A stretch of 64,000 nucleotides of DNA from an uncultured bacterium (GTDB taxonomy: Bacteria; Bacillota_I; Bacilli_A; RF39; UBA660), in NCBI GenBank assembly GCA_949296705.1, contig CASFOW010000045.1:4234-68233 (forward strand), written 5' to 3'. This document shows positions 42,386 to 63,707 of the stretch, piece after piece (the stretch's first letter is position 1; the number at the start of each line of letters is the position of its first letter). Below the pieces are notes generated by a model, which searched no databases, had not been told where the DNA came from, and saw nothing but the letters and a program-made list of their open reading frames with translations. The position numbers were made by a program, and so were the translations under genes.

Positions 42386-43222
42386 ATGAAAGAAAAAGAT
42401 TTAGACTCTAGTATGAATCCCTATCAAGAAAAACAAATACCTAAAGGATATATAAAACAATTACAATGGGATATGGCGATAGGATTACAACAAGTAGATA
42501 ATTTAAAACCATCTAAATATCTTGAGCAGATTAGTGAGAAAAATATTTTAGGTGAATTAACAATCAAAGAGGTAGAGCAAAGTTTAAGAGAATATTACAC
42601 CACAAAAGAAAAACAAAATAGTATTAATCATAAGGAATTAGAATGTGACTTTGTATCTATGAGAATCGTTGAATTATTAGATCAAGATAATTTTGAATTA
42701 TCAGTAGATTATCTAAAATATATTCATAAATATTTATTTCAAGATGTTTATGAATTTGCGGGAGAATTTAGAAAAATAGATTTTTCTAAACATGAAAAAA
42801 TATTAAATAATGATTCAGTAGCTTATGGAGACTCTAAAACATTAATAGAATCATTAGAATATGATATTAGTCTAGAAAAAGAGAAAAATTATAAAGATAT
42901 GTCCATTGTAGAAGTGATTAAAAATATTACTGATTTTACATCTAGTATATGGCAAGTACACCCTTTTAGAGAAGGTAACACAAGAACAACAGCAGTATTC
43001 ATAGAAAAATATTTAATTAGTCTAGGATACACTGTAGATAATTCATTATTTAAAGATAAATCAGTATATTTTAGAAATGCATTAGTGAGAAGTAATTATT
43101 TCAATAACTATTTAAATATCAAAGAAGATAAAACATATTTAATTAAATTTTATGAAAATTTGTTATTAGGTAAAAATAATAATTTACATTCAGAAGATTT
43201 AATTGTGAAAGAATTGTTTTAA
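42386..43222 (+). CDS. Fic/DOC-family protein (AMPylation or related nucleotidyl transfer)
   Basis: Fic motif HPFREGNTRT. Start set to ATG 42386 (RBS GGAGAGG), because the track ORF 42224.. runs through the tRNA. Confidence 0.8.
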   Translation: MKEKDLDSSMNPYQEKQIPKGYIKQLQWDMAIGLQQVDNLKPSKYLEQISEKNILGELTIKEVEQSLREYYTTKEKQNSINHKELECDFVSMRIVELLDQDNFELSVDYLKYIHKYLFQDVYEFAGEFRKIDFSKHEKILNNDSVAYGDSKTLIESLEYDISLEKEKNYKDMSIVEVIKNITDFTSSIWQVHPFREGNTRTTAVFIEKYLISLGYTVDNSLFKDKSVYFRNALVRSNYFNNYLNIKEDKTYLIKFYENLLLGKNNNLHSEDLIVKELF

Positions 43223-48011: not shown

Positions 48012-48026
48012 GAAAGGAGACCGTTG

Positions 48027-49217
48027 ATGAGTAAAAATACAAAAGATTTTTTCAAAAAGAAAAAAGGATGGTCAAAAGTAAAAGATGAAATACTTGCTTG
48101 CTATTTAAAGCCTTATTTTACCAAGATTCAATATACAAAAAAGAAAATTATTTATATTGATGGATTTGCAGGGGTAGGAATCTTTGAAGATGGGACATTA
48201 GGTTCTCCTTTAATAGCATATAATATTGCCAAAGAAGTAGGTACTGAATTAAATATAGAACTGATATTTATTGAGCAAAAATTTTCTAATGAATTATCTA
48301 ATAATGTTAAAAATTATAATAATTGCTGTGTTATTTCTGGAAACTATGAAGATAATATTGTAGATTTGATAAACAAAAATGAGGGAAATAATATTTTTGT
48401 TTATGTCGATCCTTTTGGAATTAAAAATATTAATTTTTCGTATTTTGAAAAATTAAATTCAAGTTCTTTGAATTCTGCAGAATTTTTGATGAATTTAAAT
48501 AGTTTTGGTTTTATTAGAGAAGGATGTCGTTTACTAAAAGCTGATTTACATGATGTACAGGTGGATGAAGAATTTGAAGAGTTTATGGATGAAAACCAAG
48601 AGTTTAAAAAGACTAATACTATTGAACATATGAATTCAATAGCTGGTGGAGATTATTGGCAAGAAATAATACAAGAACATCGTGATGGAAAAATAAATGG
48701 ATATGAAGCAGAAAAAAGATTTGTGGAATTATATTGTACAAAGATGAAAGAATTTGGAAAATTTAAATATGTAATTAATATCCCCATAAGAACAAAAGCA
48801 GGGAGTCCTCCTAAATATAGAATGGTATATGCGACAAATCACGCTGATGGTGTTATCTTAATGAATGATAATATGTGTAAGAGATTTGATGAGTTATTAA
48901 ATATTCAAACGGGAGGATCAGGTTCATTATTTCAAGAAAATTCTGAAAATGAAATTATTGATTTTAATAAGGTTCAATCTAATCTTTTGTCTTTATTAGA
49001 TACTAAATATATAAATTACTTTGATTTGATTGCTACATATATTGATCATTTTGAAATTATAAAAACAAAATACTTAAATGAACAACTACGCTCTTTAGAA
49101 TCAGAACGAAAAATCATCATTACAAGAATTCCACCAACTACTTCCACTGGCAAAGCCTCTAAATTTATATCCCCAGGAAAAAATCAAAAAACATTAATTA
49201 GATTGGAAGTGTCCTAG
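48027..49217 (+). CDS. TcmP-like protein (three-Cys-motif partner family, from memory); degenerate MTase-like fold
   Basis: YIDGFAGVGIF (D-x-F-A-G-x-G) and VYVDPFG (DPP[YF]-like). The adjacent downstream ORF carries a C-x3-C-x3-C motif. Confidence 0.4.
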   Translation: MSKNTKDFFKKKKGWSKVKDEILACYLKPYFTKIQYTKKKIIYIDGFAGVGIFEDGTLGSPLIAYNIAKEVGTELNIELIFIEQKFSNELSNNVKNYNNCCVISGNYEDNIVDLINKNEGNNIFVYVDPFGIKNINFSYFEKLNSSSLNSAEFLMNLNSFGFIREGCRLLKADLHDVQVDEEFEEFMDENQEFKKTNTIEHMNSIAGGDYWQEIIQEHRDGKINGYEAEKRFVELYCTKMKEFGKFKYVINIPIRTKAGSPPKYRMVYATNHADGVILMNDNMCKRFDELLNIQTGGSGSLFQENSENEIIDFNKVQSNLLSLLDTKYINYFDLIATYIDHFEIIKTKYLNEQLRSLESERKIIITRIPPTTSTGKASKFISPGKNQKTLIRLEVS

Positions 49218-49218
49218 T

Positions 49219-49995
49219 ATGTCAGAAGAAAAATGCATAAAAAGTATCACTAGAAAATCAATGCTTTATAAAACAGGAGTAGAATATGGAGACTATACTG
49301 CTAATTATGTTTTAGGATGTTCTCATGGATGTAAATATCCATGCTATGCATTTGCTTTAGCAAAAAGATTTGGAACAGTAAAAACATATGAGGATTGGAT
49401 ACAACCCGCAATAGTTTCTAATACAATAGAACTACTAAATAAAGAATTACCAAAATTAAAGGATAAAATAGAAAATGTTCAGTTATGTTTTACTACAGAC
49501 CCCTTTATGAATGGATATGAAGATGTGACAGAATTGTCATTAAAAGTAATAAAAAAAATTAATGAGTATAATATTCCATGCCACATTTTAACTAAAGGAA
49601 AATTACCTGAAAAATTACTAAAAACCTCTAAAATAAATTGGTATGGTATTACTTTAGTGTCATTAGATGAAGAATTTAGAAAGAATTATGAGCCTGGAAC
49701 ATGTGAATATATGGAGAGAATAGAAGCTCTAAAAAAACTTCATGATAAAGGATTTAAAACATGGGTAAGTATAGAACCTTATCCAACGCCCAATATCATT
49801 AATCAGAATTTAAAAGAAATATTAAATAAAATTGATTTTGTGGATAAAATTATATTTGGTAGATGGCATTATAATAAAAAAATATCAGAGTATAAAGAAT
49901 TAAAAAAATTTTATAATAGATGTGCTGACTATGTTGAAAATTTTTGCCAAGAAAAGAATATTCAAGTACATATAAAAAATAAAACAAAAAGTTGA
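49219..49995 (+). CDS. three-cysteine-motif protein (C-x3-C-x3-C), possibly a non-canonical radical-SAM-like enzyme
   Basis: GCSHGCKYPCYAF near the N-terminus. Translationally coupled to the upstream gene (2-nt gap). Confidence 0.4.
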   Translation: MSEEKCIKSITRKSMLYKTGVEYGDYTANYVLGCSHGCKYPCYAFALAKRFGTVKTYEDWIQPAIVSNTIELLNKELPKLKDKIENVQLCFTTDPFMNGYEDVTELSLKVIKKINEYNIPCHILTKGKLPEKLLKTSKINWYGITLVSLDEEFRKNYEPGTCEYMERIEALKKLHDKGFKTWVSIEPYPTPNIINQNLKEILNKIDFVDKIIFGRWHYNKKISEYKELKKFYNRCADYVENFCQEKNIQVHIKNKTKS

Positions 49996-50103: not shown

Positions 50104-52086
50104 ATGATTAAAAGTGATAAAACAAAATTAGAATTAATTAGACTTGAAGGTATACGAAACTTAATAGTTAATAAAATTAATGAGGAACAATTGATTGAAA
50201 TTATAAAACAGGAATTTAATTTCGATTCAAAAAAGTGCTATGAAATATTAAAAAAATTAAATAGAAGCCAGTTAATAAAAATAATTGATAAAAGCAATAC
50301 TATTAGTTCAAATGATATTGATGAAACATATGAACAATATAGGTATGGTCTAAAGCCAGGATTTACTATTTTTACTTTTTTAAATTGTGAGTTAAGTGAA
50401 ATAAATAGTAATGAAATAACTAAAAAAATAGAGAATAAATTAGTTAACCTTCACTATTTTGAAGATTCTAAATTCAAATCTCTTACTTTAAAGAATATAA
50501 TGAAAATAAGAGATAATACATTTGAGTTTTCTTTTACGTATTTAAGTAAATACACATATATTAATGATTCCGATGAACCCGATTATATATATGAATTAAA
50601 AGATTGTTTTGTGTGGATAAATTTAAAAAATAATTTTTTAGCAATAAAAAATTGCCCAAATGATATTCAAAATAAACTTTTAAACTTACTTTCTAATATT
50701 TTAAATGTATCTTTATATAATATAAAAATTACCAAAAAGTTAATTAATGAAGTATTTAACGGAAAAATAAAAAAAGGTACTTTTATAAAACCAGATGCAA
50801 CTGATGAAGAAGTTGCTAAAATAATAATTGCAGATGAAGAATTGACTAAAAAAAGGATATATCAAGACAGCGTAAGCAGTTACGATATGTCCAATACTTT
50901 CTTGGATGAACAATTAGATGATAGTACTAAAAGCACACTAGGAATAAATTGTAAATCTGGTAAAATTTATTTAACAAAAAATGTAAACGCAACACAATTT
51001 AGAAACTGGAGTATAAATAACATAAATAAAATTATAAATTATCTTAATGATATTAATAATTGTAAAGAAAAAGATATTTTTCAATCAAGAAATATATTAT
51101 CAAATACGAATTATAGTAGTGATGAGAAAAACATTATTGAAAATATTTGTTACAATATATTCATGTATATAAATTCAGGAGAAACATCCTTCTTAATGCA
51201 AAAAGATGTTATGGTTATTAAAAACAAATTAAGGAGTAAGTTTTATACCCCTTTATTTGGTTTCTGCGATGTTTGTAAAGAAGAAACACAATTATTTTGC
51301 CCAAAATGTAATAGAAGTAATTTGAAATTAATAAAGAATGGTATTTATTGTATGGAATGTGATGAAAACATTTTGACTTTTTTGTGTGATGAAGGTCATA
51401 ATATATATGGTAATAATTTAGTTGATATAATAAGACTAATTCCACATCGAGAATTTATAGATGAAATTAATGGTTATCTTTTGACTAACTTTGGAGTAAG
51501 ATTAGAAGGAAGTTTTGTCTTGGAAAAAAATCATTTAAGCATTCATAAATATTCATCAGGAGAGATTCTTGATTATACAAAAATAGAGGAATTTAAAAAA
51601 ATTCATGAAATCAATAGTATAAATATTAAAGACCAACTAGATAAATATAATAAGATTAAAGAAAAATGTAAGAAGTGTAGTAATGATGAATGCTCTATAT
51701 GCATTAACAATACAAATTTATGTATAATGAAGTTATTTATAGGTTTTGGTAATTATAGGCCAAGCCCACATCAAGGTCAAGAGTTCGGCGATGTTAATTT
51801 TAAAATTACATATGAAGGAAAAGAATATAATTTTGTCGGAATTGCGAAAAGCAAACCTAAGTCAGGTATTTTAAATTTGTCGGATCAAGCCAGTAGGGAA
51901 ATGATACAGCAAATATTGATGATGAGTAGGGATAAAAGAGTTGATGTGATAGGTGCAATATGTCCTGCAAAATTTCATGATCAATTGATACAAGAATTAT
52001 ATTATTTAGCTAGAATAACACAGGTAAAAATTATAATTTTGGATGATATTTTTATGAGTAAACTTTTAACTTATCGAAATATATAA
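50104..52086 (+). CDS. large hypothetical protein with central zinc ribbons and a possible C-terminal PD-(D/E)xK-like nuclease region
   Basis: CDVCKEETQLFCPKCN...CMECDEN...CKKCSNDECSIC cysteine clusters. C-terminus ...GDVNFKITYEGKEYNFVGIAKSK. No RBS; the start is uncertain. Confidence 0.4.
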   Translation: MIKSDKTKLELIRLEGIRNLIVNKINEEQLIEIIKQEFNFDSKKCYEILKKLNRSQLIKIIDKSNTISSNDIDETYEQYRYGLKPGFTIFTFLNCELSEINSNEITKKIENKLVNLHYFEDSKFKSLTLKNIMKIRDNTFEFSFTYLSKYTYINDSDEPDYIYELKDCFVWINLKNNFLAIKNCPNDIQNKLLNLLSNILNVSLYNIKITKKLINEVFNGKIKKGTFIKPDATDEEVAKIIIADEELTKKRIYQDSVSSYDMSNTFLDEQLDDSTKSTLGINCKSGKIYLTKNVNATQFRNWSINNINKIINYLNDINNCKEKDIFQSRNILSNTNYSSDEKNIIENICYNIFMYINSGETSFLMQKDVMVIKNKLRSKFYTPLFGFCDVCKEETQLFCPKCNRSNLKLIKNGIYCMECDENILTFLCDEGHNIYGNNLVDIIRLIPHREFIDEINGYLLTNFGVRLEGSFVLEKNHLSIHKYSSGEILDYTKIEEFKKIHEINSINIKDQLDKYNKIKEKCKKCSNDECSICINNTNLCIMKLFIGFGNYRPSPHQGQEFGDVNFKITYEGKEYNFVGIAKSKPKSGILNLSDQASREMIQQILMMSRDKRVDVIGAICPAKFHDQLIQELYYLARITQVKIIILDDIFMSKLLTYRNI

Positions 52087-52408
52087 TAATTAAAATAAAA
52101 ATATACTTGCAATCTTCTTCAAATAGAGCTAACATACACTACAAGGAATCGATTTTTATCTAATATTTTTAAAAGATGCTATTCATCGCCCGTTATCATT
52201 AGAGTCGAATAGCTGAAATTTTTTCCAAAACATTTGTTTTTTTCTTTTATTGTGTTATACTATGACCAATTAAAGAAATAAAGTTAGGTGAGTGAGCTTT
52301 TCTTAGTATAAGTAATAATCTACTAATTTTGGTTGATTTAATTGCTCGTGTTCTTAAGATAAGAACATTAAAATTTAATATTATTTATTGTTATGGGAGG
52401 TAGATAGT

Positions 52409-53335
52409 ATGGATAGTCGATTAAATAACATGTTAAATGACTTTTTAAAAAAATCTGATGTTAAAACAGAAGAGGAACTTAATGAAAAATTACAAGAATT
52501 TGCTCAAAAATATAATGCTGATGAGTTAGAGTATGAAGAAACTGATTTAGATAAGGCATACGCACTATTGGAAAAAGCACAAAACGCTATTACAGAGAAG
52601 AAAGCTTTAAAATTAGCTAAAGAAGCTTATGAATTTTGCTCAGCTTGTTTTGATGCTTTACTATTTCAAGTAAATTTAGAAGAAGATCCTCTAAAAAGAG
52701 ATGAATTATTAGCTGAAGGATTGGCTAAGGAAAAGGAAAGACTACAAAAAGAAGGATTTTTTGACAAAGATAGTATAGGAATATTCTATGGTATTTTTGA
52801 AACTCGTCCTTATATACGGGGATTATATTTAAGAACAACTAATTTACTTGATGATGGTAAATATACACAAGGTATTGAATCTTGTAAAGAAATTTTGAAA
52901 CTAAATAATAATGATAATACAGGGGTTCGTTATTTGTTGATGGCTACTTATGCATTATTAGAAAATGAAAAAGAAGCTTTAAAATTATATAAACAATATC
53001 CTGAAGAAAATTTAGAAATGCTATTTCCATTATTTGCTTTATATTATAAATTAGGTAATGATGAAAAGGCTCATCAATATTTGGATAAAATTTTCAAGAT
53101 TAATCCTTATTTTGTTACTTTCTTGGAAAATAGCTATGATGATGATTTAGAAGATGATGATTTAATTCCAGGTTGTTATACAGTAGGTCGTTCTTCTGAA
53201 GTCTTATACTATATGGCTACTTATGGCTTTTTGATTTTTACTATGAATTCTTTTGAAGAATATGCTTTAGCTTATTACTATAAAAAAAACAAGAAAACTT
53301 CTAAAAATAAGCATAAAAAAGGAAAGTTGAGTTAG
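52409..53335 (+). CDS. alpha-helical TPR-like protein (hypothetical)
   Basis: RBS GGGAGGTAG before ATG 52409. Repetitive helical segments. A palindrome operator-like site lies upstream. Confidence 0.45.
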   Translation: MDSRLNNMLNDFLKKSDVKTEEELNEKLQEFAQKYNADELEYEETDLDKAYALLEKAQNAITEKKALKLAKEAYEFCSACFDALLFQVNLEEDPLKRDELLAEGLAKEKERLQKEGFFDKDSIGIFYGIFETRPYIRGLYLRTTNLLDDGKYTQGIESCKEILKLNNNDNTGVRYLLMATYALLENEKEALKLYKQYPEENLEMLFPLFALYYKLGNDEKAHQYLDKIFKINPYFVTFLENSYDDDLEDDDLIPGCYTVGRSSEVLYYMATYGFLIFTMNSFEEYALAYYYKKNKKTSKNKHKKGKLS

Positions 53336-53792: not shown

Positions 53793-55370
53793 ATGAAAAT
53801 GTTAGAAGAAATTAAGCACTATGGAAAAGAAGGCGTGTATGATTCTTATCAACGAATTGTACCAACCATCAAGGACTATGAGAAAATAACGAAAACTAAA
53901 ATGCTTCAGGCTATATATAATGAATATCAAGATTATCATAATATTATTGATATTTGTACAGGACGTGAATTAAAATTTTTAAAACAGGTTTTATCCGGCA
54001 AGGTTGTATCTTTAACTCTTGAACAATTACGCGATGATAATTATGTAGATGAATATCTTTGGGAAAAAAGAAATTTAAGAGGAAAGTTTTTAGTTTGCTA
54101 TGATTATGATAGTATGAATCTCGTTGTACCCGAAGAGATTCTCCCTTTAGTCCAAAAAGCTGTTAAAAATGTTAACTGGAAAGAAAAAGATAAAAAAGAC
54201 AAACTAAATGAATTCTTAGTGGGTTTTTCTAAAACGATGGGTTCTATTATAGTGGATATATTACTTGGACTAGGCACACAAGTAACGGGAATGTCCGCTG
54301 AAGAAGTCTACAAACATATTTGCTATGACCGAGTATTTAACTATTATTTTTTCATGATAGAAGAGTATATCAAAAGTATGAATACAAAAAAGTTAGCGGT
54401 TATTGATTATGATTTTTTTGTTGATAAAAAGGAGTTAGACGCACAACGAAAAAAATTTGCAATGGCAGGAACTAGACCGGTTGATTTGAATATTTTCCGC
54501 ACCATTTTTTATCACGACTTTGATATTCATAATGCTAAGATCAAAAAGTTTCTTACTGAATTAGGTGATTTACAGATTTTTGAGGGTAATGTGTTATGGT
54601 TGGTAAAAAAATATGCCATGTTAAATAAAGATCGTACACCTTTAAAACAAGCAATCCAAAGTATTCCTGTATTAAAGGATGAAGATTTAACTTCTTTCTT
54701 TAAAGCATTGGATGAAGCTATGGATGAAATGCCATCAGGTGCTTTAAATGGTTTTACTCCTAATGAAGCTAAACAAAAGTTACAAGAACGTCAAGAAAGA
54801 GAAGCAAGCAAAAAGAAAAGTTATCAAAAACAAAAGGGTGCTTGTTTAACTGAAAAAGATACTAAGTTGTTCTATAAATTATATTTTGGTTTATTGGATT
54901 TTACTAATCAAAAATATAAGATTAAACAAGACTATAAGATTTATAAGCAATTAGGTTTAGATCCTCATGAACTAATAGACATTATAAATAAATTCTGGAG
55001 TAATAAAGAACAATTAATTATGGAGTTTAAGATGGCGAATCCTTATCATTTTTCTAAAGAAGAATTAAAGATTGTCGATCAATTTAGAAAGGGAATTAGA
55101 GATATTTATATTATTGCTAAGTTTGAATTAGAGTATACAGGTTTCCTTACTCAAGATAAAGTATATATGGTTAAAGGGATTAATGATAATTTAGATAATA
55201 TTATATCCTATAAAGAATTACCACAGGCTGTTTTTACTACGATTCTTCCCTTTAAAAATGTTCTCATTTATGATGGTATTTTTTCTGCTTTTCCTATCGA
55301 TCTAAAAAATAGTTATGGGAAAGAAATTGAAGAGGATTATAGTCGATTAATGAAATATTATCATTTATAG
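53793..55370 (+). CDS. hypothetical protein (525 aa)
   Basis: Long ORF with a short poly-A tract before the ATG. No recognisable motif. Confidence 0.45.
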   Translation: MKMLEEIKHYGKEGVYDSYQRIVPTIKDYEKITKTKMLQAIYNEYQDYHNIIDICTGRELKFLKQVLSGKVVSLTLEQLRDDNYVDEYLWEKRNLRGKFLVCYDYDSMNLVVPEEILPLVQKAVKNVNWKEKDKKDKLNEFLVGFSKTMGSIIVDILLGLGTQVTGMSAEEVYKHICYDRVFNYYFFMIEEYIKSMNTKKLAVIDYDFFVDKKELDAQRKKFAMAGTRPVDLNIFRTIFYHDFDIHNAKIKKFLTELGDLQIFEGNVLWLVKKYAMLNKDRTPLKQAIQSIPVLKDEDLTSFFKALDEAMDEMPSGALNGFTPNEAKQKLQERQEREASKKKSYQKQKGACLTEKDTKLFYKLYFGLLDFTNQKYKIKQDYKIYKQLGLDPHELIDIINKFWSNKEQLIMEFKMANPYHFSKEELKIVDQFRKGIRDIYIIAKFELEYTGFLTQDKVYMVKGINDNLDNIISYKELPQAVFTTILPFKNVLIYDGIFSAFPIDLKNSYGKEIEEDYSRLMKYYHL

Positions 55371-55550: not shown

Positions 55551-55784
55551 GTGAGAATAAGAGAAGGTATTGATTTAAAAATATTAGAATATTATCGATA
55601 TCACTATCAAGAAAACTTATTATTTCCTACTTATAAAAAGGTGATTAAAATTGGAACAAGACAAATTGTGATCGAAATTTTGATTTCTAGTAGAGAAATA
55701 TTTATTAATAAGAATGCCAAACTAAAGAAAAGCGAATATCAATTTTTACATGACCTTGAAAAAGATCATCTTTTGGTTGAATAG
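55551..55784 (+). CDS. small hypothetical protein (GTG start)
   Basis: RBS GAGGGGAG. 77 aa. Confidence 0.3.
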   Translation: MRIREGIDLKILEYYRYHYQENLLFPTYKKVIKIGTRQIVIEILISSREIFINKNAKLKKSEYQFLHDLEKDHLLVE

Positions 55785-55792
55785 TAGCTTTT

Positions 55793-56359
55793 CTATTTTT
55801 TATTTCTATTTTTAAATGGTAAGACAAGTCCCTTCTTTTTTTGTTTTTCGAATAGTTCTGCATCTTCCACTTGTTTTCCATATAATGATTCAGCTAGAAA
55901 AGTTGCGATACTAGCAATCATATCTACATCTTGATGAAGTCCGTATTCTTCAATAATCATATAGAGTACTTTTATATCTTCGAGCTTAAAATAACCTAGT
56001 TTTTTTGTGATTAAGCAAAGTAGAGCCACTTTTTCATAATCATCAGGTTGTAAGAAGGAAAATAAACTACTTTCTTTAATATCCTCTGGTGAAAGATTGT
56101 CTATTCTATTTTTTTTCTTATATTTTTCGAGCCATTCTACTCTAGTTAAATATCCTTGACTTCTTAAATTTCTAACTTGTTCATTTAAATTAATCAATTC
56201 GATAGTTATTTCTGAATTAAAAGTTCCACATTTTTTGGTTAGTTTAAATTCTATCTTTTTATTTTGTAGCCAAACGTCGTATATATCTATGCATAAGTAT
56301 TCTTTGTCGTTACATTCCCCAATCTCATAAGCAATGCCAACCAATTCTATATGTTTCAT
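55793..56359 (-). CDS. hypothetical protein (188 aa), divergent from the downstream four-gene cluster
   Basis: ORF. No motif recognised. Confidence 0.4.
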   Translation of the reverse strand: MKHIELVGIAYEIGECNDKEYLCIDIYDVWLQNKKIEFKLTKKCGTFNSEITIELINLNEQVRNLRSQGYLTRVEWLEKYKKKNRIDNLSPEDIKESSLFSFLQPDDYEKVALLCLITKKLGYFKLEDIKVLYMIIEEYGLHQDVDMIASIATFLAESLYGKQVEDAELFEKQKKKGLVLPFKNRNKK

Positions 56360-56520: not shown

Positions 56521-56548
56521 TTGACGTACATTAGTTTGATGATATACT
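56521..56548 (+). promoter_or_regulatory. candidate sigma-A promoter for the four-gene cluster (-35 TTGACG, 16-bp spacer, -10 TATACT)
   Basis: Sequence-read hexamers in the divergent intergenic region. Confidence 0.4.
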
Positions 56549-56583: not shown

Positions 56584-58242
56584 TTGGAAACAAGAGAAAA
56601 AATATTAGAAGAGCTTAATCAGTCTTTACCTAGTTATGTATCTGAGAAGATTAAGTATGCGAGTGATACTTCTTTTTCTACTGATCAGAAAATGTTAATG
56701 AAATTAAAAGAAATGAAAAAAATTGCCGAAGATACCTATTTTCAAGTAGAATTTTTAGGGACAGATTATACGAAAATTAGAAATTGGATTTTTTTTCAAC
56801 AAGCAAAGTTTATGGTTGATGTGGAAGATGATTACCCGCAAGTGATTGCCCCAGTTTTTTTCTATTCTTGGGATTATGAGTCATTACGACCTCCGGAACT
56901 TAGAACTTATTTTACTTGGCGAACAAAAATTAGAAAAGGTGAGTATCCTAAAATTTTTAGTGGTTATCTTTTAATTTACACTGCGGAATTAATTAATTTA
57001 GTAGGCTTCGATTCTGTTTTTGATGCCTATTCGAAATTAAAAAAAATATTAGAGGTTTATTGGGATGATATTGAGGAAGTGTATTTTCGTCAGATTTTAT
57101 CGCTTGCTTTAAAAGATTTTATGATCAATTATTCTATTTCTGTTTCTTATGATGAGTTTCTTCCTCAAATATTATCTGCCTCTGATTGGGAAATTTATCA
57201 AGCTAGGATAAAAATTGCCCAAGGTAATTATCATGGACTTTTAACTTATCTGGATAAACAGGCTAGTTACAAAGTGAAAAAAAGTAAATTTTACGAGAGT
57301 AAATATGGATATTTAATTGAAGAAGTAATTCCTACTGTTTTTGAACAACTTAGTCGTTATTTTGCGGAACATAATGCCGATTTTAAATCTTTAGTTTTAG
57401 GTAAAATCCATACCATTTCAGATTATTCATTATTTCGCCAATTACCTTATGTGGAACAACGAGAGAATTATCAAAATAAAATCGATTTTTCTCCGATTGA
57501 ACAATATACTTTTGAAAAAGGAATTTGTAGTAAAAAACTATTTCTGGAAAGTCCTAATCTTCGTATCATTATGGGAATTATTTTAAAAGCTATAGAGATT
57601 AGAATTCGTGAAAAGACCAACTATAAACGAAAGTTGACTCTTAATTTGAATGATTTAGGAAAAATTGTGACGCCAAGAAAGGTATTACTACCGTTAGTAG
57701 AAGATAATAGCTTTTTAGAAACAATTAATCAAGCCGTTGATTTATTTTTAATAGAGAAAAGTAAACAAATAAAAGCGGAAGAATTAATTAGAAAAAGACA
57801 GAGTGTGGTTATCGATAAAGAATCGTTTCAAAGTATTCGTGCTTCTTCTATTAGAATTCAAGAAAGACTACTTACAGAAGAAGAAAAGACAGATAGTTCT
57901 GTTCAGAAGGAGGATACTTCATCATCTTTTCAAACAACTGTAGAAGTTTCTTCTTCTTTAATACCAGAACAAGATTCAACAGTAGAAATGGGAATGGATT
58001 TATTGGTTTGTCATTTAACGTCATTTGAAAAAGAATTTGTAGTAAATATTTTACAACATGCCCCAAGAAGCAAGTTAGAAGCAATTGCTAAAAAAGAGGC
58101 TCGTTTATTAGAAGTTATTTTAGAAGATATTAATTTAAAGGCTCTTGACTATATAGGAGATAATTTAATCGAAGATTTAGGTAATCAGATAAATATTTAT
58201 GAGGATTATTTAGGAGAGTTAGAGGAGATACTTAATCGTTAA
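56584..58242 (+). CDS. hypothetical protein (552 aa), first gene of the ATPase/helicase cluster (TTG start)
   Basis: RBS GGGGGTGA. No motif recognised. Possibly a TerB-N/TerB-C-type partner of DUF2791 ATPases (inference). Confidence 0.4.
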   Translation: METREKILEELNQSLPSYVSEKIKYASDTSFSTDQKMLMKLKEMKKIAEDTYFQVEFLGTDYTKIRNWIFFQQAKFMVDVEDDYPQVIAPVFFYSWDYESLRPPELRTYFTWRTKIRKGEYPKIFSGYLLIYTAELINLVGFDSVFDAYSKLKKILEVYWDDIEEVYFRQILSLALKDFMINYSISVSYDEFLPQILSASDWEIYQARIKIAQGNYHGLLTYLDKQASYKVKKSKFYESKYGYLIEEVIPTVFEQLSRYFAEHNADFKSLVLGKIHTISDYSLFRQLPYVEQRENYQNKIDFSPIEQYTFEKGICSKKLFLESPNLRIIMGIILKAIEIRIREKTNYKRKLTLNLNDLGKIVTPRKVLLPLVEDNSFLETINQAVDLFLIEKSKQIKAEELIRKRQSVVIDKESFQSIRASSIRIQERLLTEEEKTDSSVQKEDTSSSFQTTVEVSSSLIPEQDSTVEMGMDLLVCHLTSFEKEFVVNILQHAPRSKLEAIAKKEARLLEVILEDINLKALDYIGDNLIEDLGNQINIYEDYLGELEEILNR

Positions 58243-58308
58243 AGAATGAAAACAAAAAAGGAAACAAATAAAAAACTAGTAGAAAAACAATCAGAAGGAG
58301 GTTTTATA

Positions 58309-59631
58309 ATGAATGGTAAAGTACCAAAGCGAATCGCAACTATTTTATTAAATTCTTTAAAAGGTGGAGTTGTACCTAGGACAGGATTAGGCTATATTGC
58401 GGTAGGAAGAGAAAAAGAACTGAATGCGTTATTAAATGATGTGAATTTTATTGAAGAAGGGGGAGCTACTTTTCGTTTTATCGTTGGAAAATATGGAAGT
58501 GGAAAAAGCTTTTTACTTCAGATGATTAGAAACCATGTTATGGATAAGGGGTTTGTTGTTATGGATGCCGATTTATCACCGGAAAGAAGGTTAACCGGAA
58601 CGAAAGGGCAAGGGTTAGCGACTTACCGAGAATTGGTTCGGAATATGTCGACAAAGACTAAACCGGATGGTGAGGCCTTACCTCTTATTTTAGAAAAATG
58701 GATTTCTTCTATTCAAAGTGATTTATTAATGAATGAAAATATCAAAGTAGATGATCCTAAATTTTTTGAATTAGTTGAGAAAGAAATTTATCGGGTAGTT
58801 AGTCAAGTAGAAGGTATGGTTCATGGCTTTGATTTTGCGAAGATTATTTTGAGCTATTGGAATGGTTATAAAGAAGGTAATGACGAAAAAAAGGGAGCCA
58901 GTCTCAGATGGCTTCGGGGTGAGATAACTACCAAGAGTGAGTGTAAGGATCTTTTAGGTATCAACATTATGATTACTGATGATAATTGGTATGACTATGT
59001 GAAATTATTAGCTGTTTTTATGGTAAAAGCAGGATATAAGGGAATGCTTTTGTTGATTGATGAATTAGTTAACTTGTATAAGATTCCAATGACTGTCGCA
59101 AGACAGAATAACTATGAAAAGATTTTGACCATGTATAATGATATTTTACAAGGAAAGGCAGAGTACTTGGGAATTATCATGGGTGGTACTCCGCAGTGCG
59201 TCGAAGATACGAGAAGAGGTATTTTTAGTTATGAAGCATTAAAATCAAGATTAGAGGATAGTCGCTTTGCGAATGATGATGCCCGTGATTTTTTAGCACC
59301 CATTATTCGTTTAAAGCCACTAACTCCATCAGAAATGACGATTTTAGTAGAGAAATTGGCCGATATTCATGCCGATTTATATCAATATGAAAGAAGGGTT
59401 ACTTTAGATGAATTAGTTCAATTTATTCAGATTGAGTTTAGTCGAGTTGGGGCAGTAACTAATATTACACCACGAGAAATTATCCGTGATTTTATTGAAC
59501 TTTTAAATACACTTTATCAGTATCCAGAAAAAGATTTACTTACGCTTATTCAAAGTGATGAGTTTCAACAACAATCTCAGCCTTTTGTAAATCAAGACGT
59601 GAGTGATGAGTTTGTGAGTTTTGAACTATGA
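58309..59631 (+). CDS. P-loop ATPase, DUF2791/BrxD-like
   Basis: Walker A FRFIVGKYGSGKSFLLQMI. Walker B-like LLLIDELVNLY. Start set at ATG 58309 after RBS AGGAGG; the ORF opens at 58246. Confidence 0.55.
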   Translation: MNGKVPKRIATILLNSLKGGVVPRTGLGYIAVGREKELNALLNDVNFIEEGGATFRFIVGKYGSGKSFLLQMIRNHVMDKGFVVMDADLSPERRLTGTKGQGLATYRELVRNMSTKTKPDGEALPLILEKWISSIQSDLLMNENIKVDDPKFFELVEKEIYRVVSQVEGMVHGFDFAKIILSYWNGYKEGNDEKKGASLRWLRGEITTKSECKDLLGINIMITDDNWYDYVKLLAVFMVKAGYKGMLLLIDELVNLYKIPMTVARQNNYEKILTMYNDILQGKAEYLGIIMGGTPQCVEDTRRGIFSYEALKSRLEDSRFANDDARDFLAPIIRLKPLTPSEMTILVEKLADIHADLYQYERRVTLDELVQFIQIEFSRVGAVTNITPREIIRDFIELLNTLYQYPEKDLLTLIQSDEFQQQSQPFVNQDVSDEFVSFEL

Positions 59632-61769
59632 GTGCCTTTAATCAGTTAGCACCTTTTATACAAGATTACATTTATCGTAATCGTTGGGAAGAATTACGGG
59701 ATATTCAAGTAGCTAGTATTGATATTATTTTAAATACAAATAATCATTTATTATTATCTAGTGGTACGGCTAGTGGAAAAACCGAGGCGGCCTTTTTACC
59801 TATTTTAACTGATCTTTATCAGCATCCTTCTTCCTCGGTTGGAATTTTATACATCAGTCCTTTAAAAGCCTTGATTAATGATCAGTTTGAACGACTTTCT
59901 GATCTTTTAATTGAAGCAGATATTCCGGTTTATAAGTGGCATGGAGATGTCTCTGTTTCTCATAAAAACAAATTACAGAAAAATCCGAAAGGATTGTTAC
60001 AAATTACCCCTGAATCATTAGAAGCTATGCTCACCTTCCGTAAACAAGAAGCAATTTTATTTTTTTCTGATTTACGTTATATTGTCATTGATGAAGTTCA
60101 TTATTTTATGGGAGAAAATCGGGGAATTCAACTTCTTTCTTTGTTGGAGAGGTTAAGTCGTCTTACTAATTGTTCGCCAAGAAGAATTGGCTTAAGTGCA
60201 ACAGTAGGAAATTCTTTGGAGGTAGCAAACTGGCTCGCATCAGGAACTAACAGGAAGTGTGTAGTTCCTCAAGCTGGTGGAGAAAAACGGATGCTTCATC
60301 TTTCGATTGATGATGCCGTAGTCGAGACTGATTTTTATGATAAACTTTACCATTTATCTTTTGGAAAACGCTGTATTATTTTTTCTAATAGTAGAAGTGA
60401 AGTAGAACTTAATATTGCCAATTTAAAACTGTTGGCAGCAAAAAAACAGACTCCAGATATTTATTTTACGCATCATGGTAATGTATCTGGTGGCTTAAGA
60501 GAATATGCCGAGCGGAAAATGAAAACTAGTGATTATAAGACCGTAGTTGGGACAACTGTCACTTTAGAATTAGGAATCGATGTTGGTGATTTAGAGCGAA
60601 TTATCGAAACCGGTACCCCATATAGTGTGTCTAGTTTTGTCCAACGGTTGGGTCGAAGTGGTAGGCGAAGTGGAATCAGTGAGATGATGTTTCTGTTTGA
60701 TAAAAAAGATCAAGATGATACCGAACAGAAAAACAAAGAGTTTTACCAACAAATCGATTGGGATATGATTCTTTGTATCGCATTAATCGAATTATATACG
60801 AAGGAAAAGTGGATTGAACCTTTACGACAAGCTAAACTTCCTTATCCGCTTTTATATCATCAGACAATGTGTTATTTAACCTCAGTTGGAAGCGCTTCTC
60901 CTAGTCGTTTAGCAGAATATATGCTTACTCTTTCGCCATTTCGACAAATTTCTCAAGAAGATTATCGCGACTTACTTCATTATTTGTTGGAAATTGATCA
61001 ATTGGAAATGGATGAAGAAGGGAATGTATTAATTGGTGAGAAGGGTAGTCAAACGATCTCGAAGTATCAGTTTTTAACTGTGTTTGAAAACGAAATTGAA
61101 TATTCTATTCGCGAAGAATCTAGGGAGATTGGTACAATTAATACGTTAGTTCCAGTAGGAGAGACATTGATTTTAGCGGGTAATAGTTGGCGAGTTGTGG
61201 AAATTAACGCGGAAAAACGACAGATTTTTGTAAAAAAAATAAAAGGGATTTCCAAAAGTTATTGGGAAGGACCCGATGAAATTATTATTGCGACTAAGAT
61301 TTTAAAGAAGATGAAGGAGATTTTAAGTAGTAAGGATTCTTATCCTTATTTACGATCTAATGCGAAGAATCTATTAGAAAAAAGTAGACAATTGTTCTGT
61401 AATGCGACTTTAAATCATGGGCATATAGTTATGCTTTCTGACCACTATTATGCTTTATTTCCTTATTTAGGGACAAAGTCTCTAACAACTTTACAACTTG
61501 CCCTTAGCTTTCATGGCATCTCTTCCCATATTGAATCGATTTACCGAATTCCCATTTTTCTTCATATTGATCAGGAAATCTCCAAGGAAGACCTCACTCA
61601 AGTACTAAATACCATTAAACAAGAATCACTTGATCCTTTTCAGTTAGAAACAGGGGATTTAGCAATCCAAGAAAAAAATCTTCAATATGTGCCTAAACAT
61701 TTATCCAAAAAACATTACTTGATTGATTATATTGAAGTAGAAGCAATGCAAAAAGATTTAGAATTTTAA
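59628..61769 (+). CDS. Lhr/BrxHI-like DEAD/DEAH (DEVH) superfamily-2 helicase
   Basis: Motif I LLLSSGTASGKTEAAFLPIL. Motif II VIDEVHYF. Motif VI VQRLGRSGRR. Start overlaps the upstream stop (ATGA). Confidence 0.7.
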   Translation: MSAFNQLAPFIQDYIYRNRWEELRDIQVASIDIILNTNNHLLLSSGTASGKTEAAFLPILTDLYQHPSSSVGILYISPLKALINDQFERLSDLLIEADIPVYKWHGDVSVSHKNKLQKNPKGLLQITPESLEAMLTFRKQEAILFFSDLRYIVIDEVHYFMGENRGIQLLSLLERLSRLTNCSPRRIGLSATVGNSLEVANWLASGTNRKCVVPQAGGEKRMLHLSIDDAVVETDFYDKLYHLSFGKRCIIFSNSRSEVELNIANLKLLAAKKQTPDIYFTHHGNVSGGLREYAERKMKTSDYKTVVGTTVTLELGIDVGDLERIIETGTPYSVSSFVQRLGRSGRRSGISEMMFLFDKKDQDDTEQKNKEFYQQIDWDMILCIALIELYTKEKWIEPLRQAKLPYPLLYHQTMCYLTSVGSASPSRLAEYMLTLSPFRQISQEDYRDLLHYLLEIDQLEMDEEGNVLIGEKGSQTISKYQFLTVFENEIEYSIREESREIGTINTLVPVGETLILAGNSWRVVEINAEKRQIFVKKIKGISKSYWEGPDEIIIATKILKKMKEILSSKDSYPYLRSNAKNLLEKSRQLFCNATLNHGHIVMLSDHYYALFPYLGTKSLTTLQLALSFHGISSHIESIYRIPIFLHIDQEISKEDLTQVLNTIKQESLDPFQLETGDLAIQEKNLQYVPKHLSKKHYLIDYIEVEAMQKDLEF

Positions 61770-61803
61770 AAAGTAGGAATTTAGAATTTTTCGTAAAGAA
61801 AAG

Positions 61804-61840
61804 GTTTCGAAATAGTTTGTTCGAAATGGCTTTTCTTTTT
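61804..61840 (+). terminator. candidate rho-independent terminator
   Basis: Stem tttcgaa/ttcgaaa with an 8-nt loop, followed by a T-rich tract. Confidence 0.4.
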
Positions 61841-61925
61841 TCTTTTCCTTTTTTTGCTTAGTTTTTCTCTTTTGGCCTTTTGACAATGTTTATTTTTTCT
61901 TTTATGGTGGTTATGGTGATTATGA

Positions 61926-63707
61926 ATGAGAAAGCAAGTAGAGGATTTTTATTATCAGATTAGGCAGGTATCTACTTATATTGATTATCGGATGCGAGTG
62001 GCTTGGAAAGAAAAATACGCTTCCTTATATCAACAGGTACTTGTTCACCGTAAAGAAGAGATTATCTTTTCTACTTTTTGTCACGATTATGAACATTTAG
62101 AAGAATTATTAGTTAAGCAGAATGAGCTTTGGATACAAAAAGAATTATATCAGCTGGACTTTCTCCTTAGTAATATTAATGGCTATTCCCTAGATGATAA
62201 TCAACGACGAGTAGTACTTACAGATGAGCTTCATCAATTAGTAATAGCGGGAGCGGGAAGTGGAAAGAGTCTAACTATCCTTGGTAAGATTCGGTATTTG
62301 GTTGAACGTTTGAAAATTCCACCACAAGAAATTATCGTACTTTCTTTTACCAATGATTCAACAAAAAGTCTTAAGATGAGTATCGATAAGCAAGTTCAGT
62401 ACCCAGTTCAGATTTATACTTTTCATCAGTTAGCTCTTCAAATTTTAAAGAAGAATGATTCTTATCCTTATACGATCGCTCCAGCCGATTTGTTGGAATA
62501 TTTAATCGATGAGTATTTTCAAACGACGATATTTCTTTATCCTAAAATGATGAAGAGCTTACTTCATTACCTTGGAATTTCTACTTTCCCTTTCTCTACT
62601 TTGTACGGTTATCGTCATTTCTTATCACCAGAAGAATTAAAGCTATTTCAAAAATTATTAGTGAAATTTATTCGTTTATTTAAGACAAATGCCTATCAAG
62701 AGGCTGATTTTATTGGCTTTTTTGAACAAAATAAGAAGAGTTTTACTCTGAAAAAGGATGGAAAACAAAAGACTTTTTTACATTTTGCTTATCTATTTTA
62801 TCACTTATATGAACAGGAGTTATCTTCCCAAGGCGAAATCGATTTTGATGATATGATTAAGTTAGCGACGAAATCAGTTTTGACGAAAGGAATGCCCTTA
62901 CCTTGTCGCTATTTAATTATCGATGAATATCAAGATAGTTCTTTGGTTCGAGTAAAATTAGTTCAAGCTATTTTAGAAAGAACGAGGGCTAAATTTATGG
63001 CGGTAGGGGATGATTTTCAATCGATTTATCGATTTACGGGGTGTGACTTAGCTATTTTTTATCATTTTGAACGTTATTTTCCTCATCCAATAACGATGAA
63101 AATAGAAAATACTTACCGAAATAGTCAGGAATTAGTTACTGTTGCCGGTAATTTTGTGATGAAAAATCCTTCGCAACTTCAGAAAAATTTATCGGCATTA
63201 AAACATTTAGAACGACCTATTCATCTTGTTTATTATCAAAACGCGGTTTTTACTTTTAAACGGGTAGTTAAGGAAATTTATCAAAATTTTCCTAAGGAAA
63301 TATTAGTGTTGGGGCGAAATAATCGGGATATTTATACTTCTATCGATCGGGAGTTTCGTTATGAAGAAAGAACCGGTAAATTAATTTATCTTCCTTATCC
63401 AGAAATTTCTCTTCGTTATTTAACTGTTCATAAATCGAAAGGGCTAGAAGAAGAAAACGTGATTTTACTTCATGTTGCGGAAGGTAAGATGGGGTTTCCT
63501 AATCAGATTGTAGACCATGAAGTATTAAAGTTTGTTTTGTTAAAAGAAGAAAATTTTCGTTTTAGCGAAGAAAGAAGATTATTCTATGTTGCTTTAACCA
63601 GAACCAAAAACTATATTTATTTACTAGCTCCTAAAGGAAGAGAATCTTGTTTTATCCAGGAATTAGTCCGTGATTATCCTTCTTTTATCACCGTAAGTAC
63701 AGATTAA
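61926..63707 (+). CDS. UvrD/PcrA-family superfamily-1 helicase
   Basis: Walker A VIAGAGSGKSLTILGKI. Motif II YLIIDEYQDSS. C-terminal LTVHKSKGLEEENVILL and RRLFYVALTRTKNYIYLL. Confidence 0.7.
   Translation: MRKQVEDFYYQIRQVSTYIDYRMRVAWKEKYASLYQQVLVHRKEEIIFSTFCHDYEHLEELLVKQNELWIQKELYQLDFLLSNINGYSLDDNQRRVVLTDELHQLVIAGAGSGKSLTILGKIRYLVERLKIPPQEIIVLSFTNDSTKSLKMSIDKQVQYPVQIYTFHQLALQILKKNDSYPYTIAPADLLEYLIDEYFQTTIFLYPKMMKSLLHYLGISTFPFSTLYGYRHFLSPEELKLFQKLLVKFIRLFKTNAYQEADFIGFFEQNKKSFTLKKDGKQKTFLHFAYLFYHLYEQELSSQGEIDFDDMIKLATKSVLTKGMPLPCRYLIIDEYQDSSLVRVKLVQAILERTRAKFMAVGDDFQSIYRFTGCDLAIFYHFERYFPHPITMKIENTYRNSQELVTVAGNFVMKNPSQLQKNLSALKHLERPIHLVYYQNAVFTFKRVVKEIYQNFPKEILVLGRNNRDIYTSIDREFRYEERTGKLIYLPYPEISLRYLTVHKSKGLEEENVILLHVAEGKMGFPNQIVDHEVLKFVLLKEENFRFSEERRLFYVALTRTKNYIYLLAPKGRESCFIQELVRDYPSFITVSTD

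What the first reader, a model, noticed from the sequence alone, without database searches (positions are those of the whole stretch)
56584..63707. Four-gene cluster of an unknown 552-aa protein, a DUF2791/BrxD-like ATPase and two helicases does not match a complete named defence system
Downstream of a sigma-A-like promoter are four tightly linked genes. They are a 552-aa unknown; a 441-aa P-loop ATPase resembling BrxD/DUF2791 (Walker A GKYGSGKSF); a 713-aa Lhr/BrxHI-like DEVH helicase whose start is coupled by ATGA to the ATPase stop; and a 593-aa UvrD-like SF1 helicase. BrxD plus BrxHI normally accompany type-2 BREX (PglW/X/Y/Z), but no PglZ, PglY/BrxC, BrxA or BrxB is present here. A DUF2791 ATPase plus Lhr-type helicase plus a large unknown partner, with an extra UvrD-like helicase, would be a stand-alone accessory module. 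It sits in a tRNA-His-associated island beside a Type ISP R-M enzyme, which fits an anti-phage or anti-plasmid role.
Basis: partly seen in the sequence, partly recalled or inferred. Interest (0 to 1): 0.8.

Follow-up and report, generated by a model that had tools for sequence, protein, structure and literature searches.

The report
Shango defence operon plus neighbouring helicase
The first three genes are an ordinary copy of the already named and experimentally validated Shango anti-phage system (SngA, SngB, SngC), and the fourth gene is a separately transcribed chromosomal helicase that merely lies next to it.

Summary
The four ORFs exist at the stated coordinates. The claim that they match no named defence system is wrong. 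PADLOC models identify ORF1-3 as SngA (1.6e-49), SngB (1.6e-184) and SngC (4.2e-216). These are near full-length matches and far stronger than the BREX BrxD and BrxHI models. ORF1 carries TerB_N and TerB_C domains. This is Shango, which protected E. coli and P. aeruginosa from phages in published assays (Millman 2022; Johnson 2023).

The fourth gene, a helicase-IV/UvrD-like SF1 helicase, is not part of the system:
- A 156-nt spacer separates it from sngC. The spacer holds a terminator-like hairpin and a conserved promoter.
- Its 56%- and 45%-identity orthologues sit in the same core gene neighbourhood without Shango.
- None of the 32 SngABC loci surveyed outside the window's own lineage has a UvrD-like neighbour.

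The defence-island context is correct: tRNA-His, a Fic protein, a Type ISP restriction enzyme and candidate systems lie upstream.

Shango's mechanism is unpublished. I infer that SngB, an ORC/Cdc6-type ATPase, loads or activates the Lhr-like helicase SngC on foreign DNA. SngA, which evolves fast and contains a winged-helix domain, would control this step.

Verdict: a known system and an ordinary member. Interest is low.

The parts
56521..56548 (+). Promoter-like site of the Shango operon: TTGACG, 16-nt spacer, TG-extended TATACT
   Evidence: One search gives 10 of 12 matches with TG before the -10 element. One search shows the sequence. Consensus match only; not tested for function.
56584..58242 (+). 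sngA: 552-aa TerB_N + TerB_C protein, TTG start after a GGGGGTGA ribosome-binding site
   Evidence: PADLOC SngA 1.6e-49, covering profile positions 81-527 of 528. Pfam TerB_N 3.1e-15 and TerB_C 7.3e-12. The AF2 model has pLDDT 84.5. Only winged-helix domain-level fold matches were found and no enzymatic fold.
58309..59631 (+). sngB: 440-aa BrxC_BrxD-family (ORC/Cdc6-type AAA+) ATPase with Walker A GKYGSGKS and Walker B LLLIDE. The longer 461-aa ORF from 58246 is probably not the real start.
   Evidence: PADLOC SngB 1.6e-184 against BrxD 9.9e-49. Pfam PF10923 1.4e-162. AAGGAGG lies 7 nt before the ATG at 58309. Relatives are 440 aa.
59628..61769 (+). sngC: 713-aa SF2 DEVH helicase of the Lhr/BrxHI type. 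Its start overlaps the sngB stop (ATGA).
   Evidence: PADLOC SngC 4.2e-216 against BrxHI 4.4e-128. Pfam DEAD, Helicase_C and a weak WH_Lhr. The closest solved chains are Lhr core 5v9x (4e-30), Lhr 7lhl and MrfA/YprA 6znp. The overlap is shown.
61795..61850 (+). Terminator-like AT-rich hairpin followed by a T-run, marking the end of the Shango operon
   Evidence: Fold energy is -17.5 kcal/mol but the z-score is only -1.45. A hairpin of different sequence plus a T-run sits at the same place in L002 and L017. The consensus terminator scan did not call it because the stem has too few G-C pairs.
61880..61908 (+). Separate promoter-like site for ORF4: TTGACA, 17-nt spacer, TATGGT. Not part of Shango.
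   Evidence: One search gives 10 of 12 matches. The TTGACAAT box and the -10 region are invariant or nearly so in five related loci.
61926..63707 (+). ORF4: 593-aa helicase-IV/UvrD-like SF1 helicase. It is a flanking core chromosomal gene and not a Shango component.
   Evidence: Pfam UvrD-helicase 1.3e-41 and UvrD_C. The best NCBIfam match is DNA helicase IV at 4.2e-83, which is below the curated cut-off. Orthologues keep the downstream synteny without Shango in L009 and L013. It is absent from Shango loci outside the lineage.

Best explanation
Positions 56.5-61.8 kb hold a complete, intact Shango anti-phage operon, sngA-sngB-sngC, in an uncultured gut Bacilli genome. It lies at the right-hand end of a defence hotspot downstream of tRNA-His. 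The UvrD-like gene after it is the first core gene flanking the hotspot.

Shown here: the identity of the three proteins, their order, their translational coupling, their intact catalytic motifs, and the independence of ORF4.

Taken from the literature: Shango reduces phage plating in E. coli and P. aeruginosa.

Inferred mechanism (none is published):
- SngB, an ORC/Cdc6-type AAA+ ATPase related to BrxD, loads or activates SngC on invading DNA. SngC is an Lhr/Ski2-like helicase related to BrxHI. BrxD and BrxHI form a tightly linked dyad in type-2 BREX.
- SngA is the sensor or licensing subunit that decides when and where this motor acts. It is the fast-evolving TerB-N/TerB-C protein, and it has at least one winged-helix module and no recognisable enzymatic fold.
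- Because none of the three proteins contains a recognisable nuclease, interference probably comes from ATP-driven unwinding or remodelling of phage replication or recombination intermediates. Those intermediates may then be handed to host nucleases.
For: PADLOC gives SngA 1.6e-49, SngB 1.6e-184 and SngC 4.2e-216. SngB and SngC cover almost the full length of their profiles and SngA covers profile positions 81-527 of 528. SngB and SngC outscore the BREX BrxD and BrxHI models by 447 and 292 bits.

Pfam finds TerB_N and TerB_C in SngA, BrxC_BrxD in SngB, and DEAD plus Helicase_C plus a weak WH_Lhr in SngC.

The gene order TerB-like, ATPase, DEAD/DEAH helicase is the one described for the validated PA14 Shango, which reduced plating efficiency 10-100-fold (PMC10250203). 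Millman et al. define Shango as a TerB-domain system.

The same three-gene unit recurs in 36 species-representative genomes and in metagenome contigs at 44-50% SngA identity.

The sngB/sngC ATGA overlap and the motifs are intact.

For the inferred mechanism:
- BrxD is an ORC/Cdc6 AAA+ ATPase that forms a linked dyad with BrxHI, and it has been proposed to load or activate that helicase (PMC12839542).
- SngC is closest to Lhr and MrfA among solved structures.
- SngC, BrxHI, DruE and DpdJ form one defence-helicase clade (PMC12278908).
- SngA diverges much faster than SngB: 45% against 77% identity in one set of relatives, and about 25% against about 57% in another.
Against: No experiment exists for this particular locus or for any Shango from Bacilli.

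The mechanism is inference only. Papers up to 2026 still call the role of TerB domains unclear and favour 'membrane surveillance'. SngA here has no predicted membrane segment in the model, but I did not run a dedicated membrane-segment predictor.

The operon terminator is weak by energy statistics (z -1.45).

Within the window's lineage Shango looks vertically retained alongside core genes, which would also be compatible with a housekeeping DNA-processing role.
Confidence: 0.93

Rival explanations
1. One reading: a new four-gene stand-alone defence module in which the UvrD-like helicase is a fourth, functionally linked component.
For: In six loci of the window's own lineage (L002, L012, L016-L019) ORF4 directly follows sngC, at SngA identities of 79-87%. 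UvrD-like helicases do occur in defence systems, and ORF4 hits the GajB and RTasHel models at about 1e-38.
Against: ORF4 orthologues at 56% (L009) and 45% (L013) identity keep the same downstream core genes without any Shango: SDR265 at 74%, u173 at 71%, SDR248 at 65% and Met-gamma-lyase at 76% identity. Shango loci at 38-50% SngA identity, and all more distant ones, lack any UvrD-like hit within 10 kb. No fourth gene recurs among the 36 SngABC loci. ORF4 has its own conserved promoter after a terminator-like hairpin. Its family is very large, with 3325 hits at E<1e-20. The PADLOC hits are partial, generic UvrD-domain matches.
Confidence: 0.04
2. An orphan BrxD-BrxHI accessory pair left over from, or detached from, a type-2 BREX (Pgl) system.
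For: SngB and SngC do hit BrxD (9.9e-49) and BrxHI (4.4e-128). The NCBIfam BREX_BrxD model scores 168.6 bits. BrxD and BrxHI form a linked dyad in type-2 BREX.
Against: The Shango-specific models score far higher: 612 against 165 bits, and 718 against 427 bits. The NCBIfam BrxD score is far below its 350-bit cut-off. No PglZ, PglX, PglW or BrxC match was found among the 13 ORFs scanned between 40.9 and 63.7 kb, nor in the 8 kb downstream. The pair is always preceded by a TerB_N/TerB_C gene, which BREX lacks.
Confidence: 0.02
3. A non-immune, housekeeping DNA-repair or stress (Ter-type) module of this lineage, not an anti-phage system.
For: The operon is kept at the same chromosomal position, next to core genes, across several species of the lineage. 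Its divergence is similar to that of the neighbouring core helicase: SngA 79-87% and ORF4 77-90%. SngC's nearest characterised relatives, Lhr and MrfA, are repair helicases. TerB was first described in tellurite and stress resistance.
Against: Homologous three-gene operons gave phage protection in two hosts. Here the operon sits in a variable hotspot alongside a Type ISP restriction enzyme, a Fic/PDC-S72 protein and candidate PDC genes. It is absent at the same site in the next relative (L009). In other genomes it lies next to CRISPR-Cas9 (L007). Patchy distribution of this kind is typical of defence genes.
Confidence: 0.05

Closest known systems
Shango (SngA/SngB/SngC), described by Millman et al. 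2022 and Johnson et al. 2023 (P. aeruginosa PA14 cDHS1)
   Same: The three protein families are the same by dedicated HMMs. The order is the same: TerB-like, ATPase, DEAD/DEAH helicase. It forms a single operon and lies in a defence island or hotspot next to a tRNA gene.
   Different: The host is an uncultured low-GC gut Bacilli, not a Proteobacterium. The SngA HMM match starts at profile position 81, so the N-terminus is divergent. Nothing else distinguishes it.
BrxD-BrxHI dyad of type-2 BREX (Pgl)
   Same: Both have a homologous ORC/Cdc6-type standalone ATPase next to a homologous Lhr/Ski2-like helicase, as a tightly linked pair. This is the best available model for how SngB and SngC cooperate.
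   Different: No PglX methyltransferase, PglZ, PglW or BrxC is present. A TerB_N/TerB_C protein is present instead. The BREX HMMs score much lower than the Shango HMMs.
Lhr / MrfA (YprA) DNA-repair helicases
   Same: The SF2 DEVH core and the winged-helix region of SngC are closest to these among solved structures: 5v9x at 4e-30, 7lhl, and 6znp at 5.9e-27. This suggests 3'-to-5' translocation on single-stranded nucleic acid, an inference from established knowledge of Lhr.
   Different: Pfam finds no DUF1998/MrfA zinc domain. NCBIfam scores are far below the equivalog cut-offs. The genomic context is different.
E. coli helicase IV (HelD) and the UvrD/Rep/PcrA family, for ORF4 only
   Same: ORF4's best NCBIfam match is DNA helicase IV, at 4.2e-83 across residues 56-583. 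It has the SF1 motifs GSGKS, DEYQD and VHKSKGLE.
   Different: The score of 280 bits is below the 543-bit cut-off. ORF4 is shorter than HelD and has only about 85 residues before the helicase core. A second UvrD-like paralogue of 813 aa lies 2 kb downstream.

Membership tests
Shango | SngA: a protein with TerB N-terminal and TerB C-terminal domains that matches the SngA model | tested here: met
   PADLOC SngA 1.6e-49, residues 30-550 against profile positions 81-527 of 528. Pfam TerB_N 56.9 bits and TerB_C 46.2 bits, both above the gathering cut-offs.
Shango | SngB: a BrxC_BrxD-family P-loop ATPase that matches the SngB model, with intact Walker motifs | tested here: met
   PADLOC SngB 1.6e-184, profile positions 4-437 of 439. 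PF10923 1.4e-162. GKYGSGKS and LLLIDE are present.
Shango | SngC: an SF2 DEAD/DEAH helicase that matches the SngC model, with intact helicase motifs | tested here: met
   PADLOC SngC 4.2e-216, profile positions 4-714 of 720. DEVH, SAT and QRLGRSGR are present.
Shango | All three genes adjacent, co-oriented and in the order A-B-C | tested here: met
   Coordinates are 56584-58242, 58309-59631 and 59628-61769, with a 4-nt overlap between sngB and sngC. The PA14 system has the same order, as do most of the 36 SngABC genome loci, three of which carry inserts.
Shango | Confers resistance to phage infection | not testable with these tools
   This has been shown only for the E. coli and P. aeruginosa homologues.
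BREX type 2 (Pgl) | Presence of PglZ, PglX, BrxC/PglY and PglW together with BrxD and BrxHI | tested here: not met
   PADLOC and Pfam scans of the 13 ORFs between 40.9 and 63.7 kb found no such matches. The 8 kb downstream holds SDR genes, a UvrD-like gene and small genes without Pfam hits, none of them BREX-like. The NCBIfam BrxD score of 168.6 bits is below the 350-bit cut-off.
Gabija (for ORF4 as GajB) | A GajB UvrD-like helicase paired with a GajA OLD-family ATPase-nuclease | tested here: not met
   ORF4 gives only partial GajB matches of about 1e-38 in several stretches. No GajA hit was found in any neighbouring ORF. The downstream genes are SDRs.
DNA helicase IV (HelD), NCBIfam NF008276 (for ORF4) | A score above the curated equivalog cut-off of 543 bits | tested here: not met
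   The score is 280 bits at E = 4.2e-83. ORF4 is helicase-IV-like but not an equivalog.

The most novel reading that the evidence does not exclude
In this uncultured Bacilli lineage the neighbouring helicase-IV-like gene may have been co-opted as a lineage-specific helper of Shango. In that case sngABC plus ORF4 would act together even though they are transcribed separately. ORF4 stays adjacent to sngC in all six loci of the lineage (L002, L012, L016-L019). The evidence shows that the link is not general. It cannot exclude a local functional coupling.
Probability: 0.05. Interest if true: 0.4.

Novelty: already known. Interest (0 to 1): 0.12.

Why it matters
The direct value is in correct annotation. 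What looked like an unnamed four-gene module is a standard Shango operon plus a flanking core helicase, so it should not be pursued as a new system.

Three points of modest interest remain:
- It documents Shango in an uncultured low-GC gut Bacilli lineage. The operon lies in a tRNA-His defence hotspot with a Type ISP restriction enzyme and several unknown genes.
- Shango's mechanism is still unknown. The contrast between the slowly evolving SngB/SngC motor and the fast-evolving, winged-helix-containing SngA supports a division into sensor and motor that can be tested.
- The survey turned up SngA-like proteins paired with AbiD instead of SngB/SngC. This suggests SngA may be a portable module.

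Tried and rejected
Pfam finds neither.
- BREX remnant: rejected on HMM score differences and on the absence of PglZ, PglX, PglW and BrxC.
- ORF4 as GajB, as the helicase of a DRT system, or as another defence helicase: only generic, partial UvrD-domain matches and no partner genes.
- Integrative-island boundaries: there is no second copy of the tRNA-His 3' end, even allowing 3 mismatches. No convincing long direct repeats occur in 38-64 kb. The Pfam and PADLOC scans of the ORFs from 40.9 to 63.7 kb returned no integrase or recombinase domain. The region therefore behaves as a hotspot and not as a recognisable integrated element.
- A recurrent fourth gene or upstream regulator of Shango: clustering the neighbours of the 36 SngABC loci gave none beyond the window's own lineage. 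u77 and u188 are lineage-specific.
- Plasmid DNA search: only weak, partial matches (31% coverage or less) to ATP-binding and DEAD/DEAH helicase genes. No mobile-element origin was identified.
- Anantharaman et al. 2012, the paper on TerB-associated systems, could not be retrieved. Its content is cited only through Millman and Johnson.
- Literature searches for a Shango mechanism found none up to 2026.
Full report

Upstream of the first ORF lies a TTGACG-16 nt-TATACT promoter-like site with a TG extension, at 56521-56548. A GGGGGTGA ribosome-binding site precedes the TTG start.

The second ORF most likely begins at the ATG at 58309. A perfect AAGGAGG lies 7 nt upstream of that ATG. This gives 440 aa, the length called at all six sufficiently long relative loci examined (L002, L003, L005, L006, L007, L012).

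The ATGA overlap between ORF2 and ORF3 is real. All catalytic motifs are intact.

The fourth ORF, however, is not tightly linked. A 156-nt spacer separates it from ORF3. The spacer contains an AT-rich hairpin followed by a T-run. The fold energy is -17.5 kcal/mol but the z-score is only -1.45. It also contains a TTGACA-17 nt-TATGGT promoter-like site at 61880-61908. In five related loci the promoter boxes are invariant or nearly so. A hairpin is also retained there, though its sequence differs. Promoter-like matches in this AT-rich DNA are no more frequent than in shuffles, so position and conservation carry the argument.

**What it is.** PADLOC models assign the three genes as follows:

| ORF | Model | E-value | Profile positions covered |
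|---|---|---|---|
| ORF1 | SngA | 1.6e-49 | 81-527 of 528 |
| ORF2 | SngB | 1.6e-184 | 4-437 of 439 |
| ORF3 | SngC | 4.2e-216 | 4-714 of 720 |

The NCBIfam BrxD model gives 168.6 bits against a cut-off of 350.

Pfam shows TerB_N and TerB_C in ORF1. It shows BrxC_BrxD (formerly DUF2791) in ORF2. In ORF3 it shows DEAD, Helicase_C and a weak Lhr winged-helix.

This is the Shango system. Millman et al. named it as a TerB-domain defence system. Johnson et al. validated the P. aeruginosa PA14 operon, which encodes a TerB-like protein, an ATPase and a DEAD/DEAH helicase in that order. It reduced plating efficiency 10-100-fold for many phages and protected liquid cultures strongly.

**The fourth gene.** ORF4 is a UvrD-family SF1 helicase. 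Its best named match is DNA helicase IV, at 4.2e-83 and 280 bits, below the curated cut-off. Its PADLOC hits (GajB, RTasHel at about 1e-38) are partial, generic UvrD-domain matches without partner genes.

Four lines of evidence show it is a flanking core gene and not a Shango component.

1. Shango loci whose SngA is 44-50% identical to the window's (L003-L007) have SngA, a 440-aa SngB and a 713-aa SngC. These are followed by NUDIX or amidohydrolase genes and no helicase.

2. I surveyed one genome per species with an SngA alignment. This gave 36 loci with SngA, SngB and SngC, of which 28 have at least 2.5 kb downstream. A UvrD-like hit within 10 kb occurs only in the four loci of the window's own lineage (L016-L019). 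No fourth gene recurs anywhere.

3. ORF4 orthologues at 56% (L009) and 45% (L013) identity keep the same downstream core genes but have no Shango. In L009 these are SDR265 at 74%, a 173-aa protein at 71%, SDR248 at 65% and Met-gamma-lyase at 76% identity, with gpsA also in the conserved neighbourhood. In L009 the upstream position holds a DNA methylase and an unknown 418-aa gene. In L013 it holds peptidoglycan-binding genes.

4. ORF4 has its own promoter after a terminator-like hairpin. Its family is very large, with 3325 hits at E<1e-20.

The window's own contig continues beyond ORF4 with SDR genes, a second UvrD-like helicase of 813 aa, and what looks like ordinary chromosomal content.

**Context.** The organism is an uncultured low-GC gut Bacilli. 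Its nearest named relatives are 'uncultured Tenericutes UMGS592', 'uncultured Bacilli' MAGs and Candidatus (Allo)scybalousia intestinigallinarum.

The contents of the region, from left to right:

| Coordinates | Content |
|---|---|
| 42210-42285 | tRNA-His |
| about 42386-43222 | Fic protein (PDC-S72) |
| 43239-48011 | Type ISP restriction-modification enzyme |
| 48024-49995 | weak PDC-M30A/M41-like pair that includes a radical-SAM protein |
| 50104-52086 | unknown 660-aa protein |
| 52388-53335 | TPR protein |
| 53793-55370 | unknown 525-aa protein |
| 55551-56359 | u77 and u188 |
| 56584-61769 | Shango |

In the related genome L016, the gene just left of tRNA-His (96% identical) is followed almost directly by TPR, u77, u188 and Shango. 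The Fic-to-660-aa block and the 525-aa gene are therefore insertions specific to the window's genome.

I found no tRNA-derived direct repeat and no integrase in 42-64 kb. The region behaves as a chromosomal defence hotspot between tRNA-His and the core helicase.

**How it most likely works.** No mechanism for Shango is published in the library I could search. Papers up to 2026 still describe the role of TerB domains as unclear and speculate about membrane surveillance.

The following is established:
- SngB belongs to the BrxC/BrxD family, which is classified as ORC/Cdc6-type AAA+ ATPases. In type-2 BREX, BrxD forms a tightly linked dyad with BrxHI and has been proposed to load or activate that helicase.
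- SngC clusters with BrxHI, DruE and DpdJ in a defence-helicase clade. Among solved structures it is closest to Lhr and MrfA.
- None of the three proteins shows a nuclease domain.
- SngA diverges far faster than SngB and SngC:

| Set of relatives | SngA identity | SngB identity | SngC identity |
|---|---|---|---|
| Closer | 45% | 77% | 77% |
| More distant | about 25% | about 57% | about 44% |

From this I infer a conserved ATP-driven motor, in which SngB loads or activates SngC on foreign DNA. The variable SngA would act as sensor or licensing subunit and control that motor. Interference would come from unwinding or remodelling of phage DNA intermediates and not from direct cleavage. I rate identity as Shango at about 0.93. 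I rate this particular mechanism at roughly 0.3.

**Rivals.**
- A four-gene novel system: about 0.04, largely refuted as described above.
- An orphan BREX BrxD-BrxHI pair: about 0.02. It is rejected on HMM scores, the absence of PglZ, PglX, PglW and BrxC, and the constant TerB partner.
- A housekeeping repair or stress module: about 0.05. Vertical retention within the lineage and the Lhr/MrfA similarity favour it. The validated homologues, the hotspot context and the patchy distribution argue against it.

**Novelty and verdict.** This is an already known system and a typical member of it. The finding should be scored low.

**Side observation.** In 36 Oscillospiraceae, Ruminococcus and other Clostridia genomes, an SngA-like TerB_N/TerB_C protein is paired with an overlapping upstream AbiD/Abi_2 gene. 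It matches the PADLOC SngA model at 3.4e-57, which is better than the window's own SngA. The AbiD gene scores 2.9e-94 in PADLOC and 1.9e-50 for Pfam Abi_2. No SngB or SngC lies within 10 kb of these pairs. This suggests SngA may be a portable module used with different partners. I did not follow it further.

Noticed in passing
L024-L027, L029-L046, L048-L051, L054, L057, L059, L064, L071, L074, L090-L092, L094 (for example L039 8847-9725 and 9719-11632): In 36 species-representative Clostridia genomes (Oscillospiraceae, Ruminococcus and others), an SngA-like TerB_N/TerB_C protein of about 635 aa (PADLOC SngA 3.4e-57) has no SngB or SngC within 10 kb. Instead an AbiD/Abi_2 gene (PADLOC AbiD 2.9e-94) lies immediately upstream and overlaps it in the two loci read in detail (L033, L039). 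The AbiD genes are 66-95% identical to one another. In those two loci the setting looks like core genome, with gpsA (and plsY in L039) upstream and RNase Y downstream in L039. This may be a two-gene AbiD + SngA-like module. I do not know whether it has been described.
   Followed up: partly
window:5939-38838: A prophage lies upstream of the defence region. It has a 505-aa integrase on the - strand (phrog_95, 4.3e-89), which I take to be a serine recombinase from its size alone. It also has a large terminase, portal, major head protein, a 1080-aa tape-measure protein and tail proteins.
   Followed up: partly
window:42210-43222: tRNA-His (42210-42285) is overlapped by the mechanically listed GTG ORF at 42224-43222. 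The real Fic gene (PDC-S72 1.7e-81; Pfam Fic) probably starts at the ATG at 42386, after a GGAGAGG ribosome-binding site.
   Followed up: partly
window:48024-52086: Three co-oriented genes lie directly after the Type ISP enzyme. The first is a 397-aa protein with weak PDC-M30A/PDC-M41A matches (8e-13 and 6e-9). The second is a 258-aa radical-SAM protein (weak PDC-M41B, 2.7e-6). The third is a cysteine-rich 660-aa protein with no match in Pfam or PADLOC. The block has very low GC (0.24 for the 660-aa gene) and is absent from the related locus L016. It could be an uncharacterised defence candidate and is more novel than the flagged cluster.
   Followed up: no
window:53793-55370: A 525-aa ORF has no Pfam, PADLOC or PHROG match. 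It is inserted between the TPR gene and u77 and is absent from all related loci examined. In L002 and L012 a DUF5661 gene and, in L002, a sigma-70 region-2 protein occupy that interval.
   Followed up: no
window:55551-56359: A 77-aa + strand ORF and a 188-aa - strand ORF, both without family matches, lie immediately upstream of sngA in all six loci of the window's lineage. They are 68-91% identical there. They do not occur upstream of more distant Shango operons.
   Followed up: partly
L065, L066, L067, L068: Some Shango loci have insertions inside the operon. In L066, SngA ends at 11404 and SngB starts at 16733. In L068 the gap between SngA and SngB is about 7 kb and no SngC was detected. In L067 there is a 1.4-kb gap between SngB and SngC. 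The inserted content was not examined.
   Followed up: no
L001:8582-11023 (about 2 kb beyond the right end of the window): A second UvrD-family helicase of 813 aa lies 2 kb downstream of ORF4. It is 31-36% identical to ORF4 in segments and is separated from it by two SDR genes. In L009 the related 781-aa helicase lies upstream of the ORF4 orthologue instead. The lineage therefore carries two helicase-IV/HelD-like paralogues in a locally rearranged neighbourhood.
   Followed up: partly
L007:186-5682: In one relative (an uncultured Bacilli MAG, GCA_947623825.1), the Shango operon lies directly downstream of a type II CRISPR-Cas locus (Cas9, Cas1, Cas2). This is another sign that Shango keeps defence-island company in Bacilli.
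   Followed up: no
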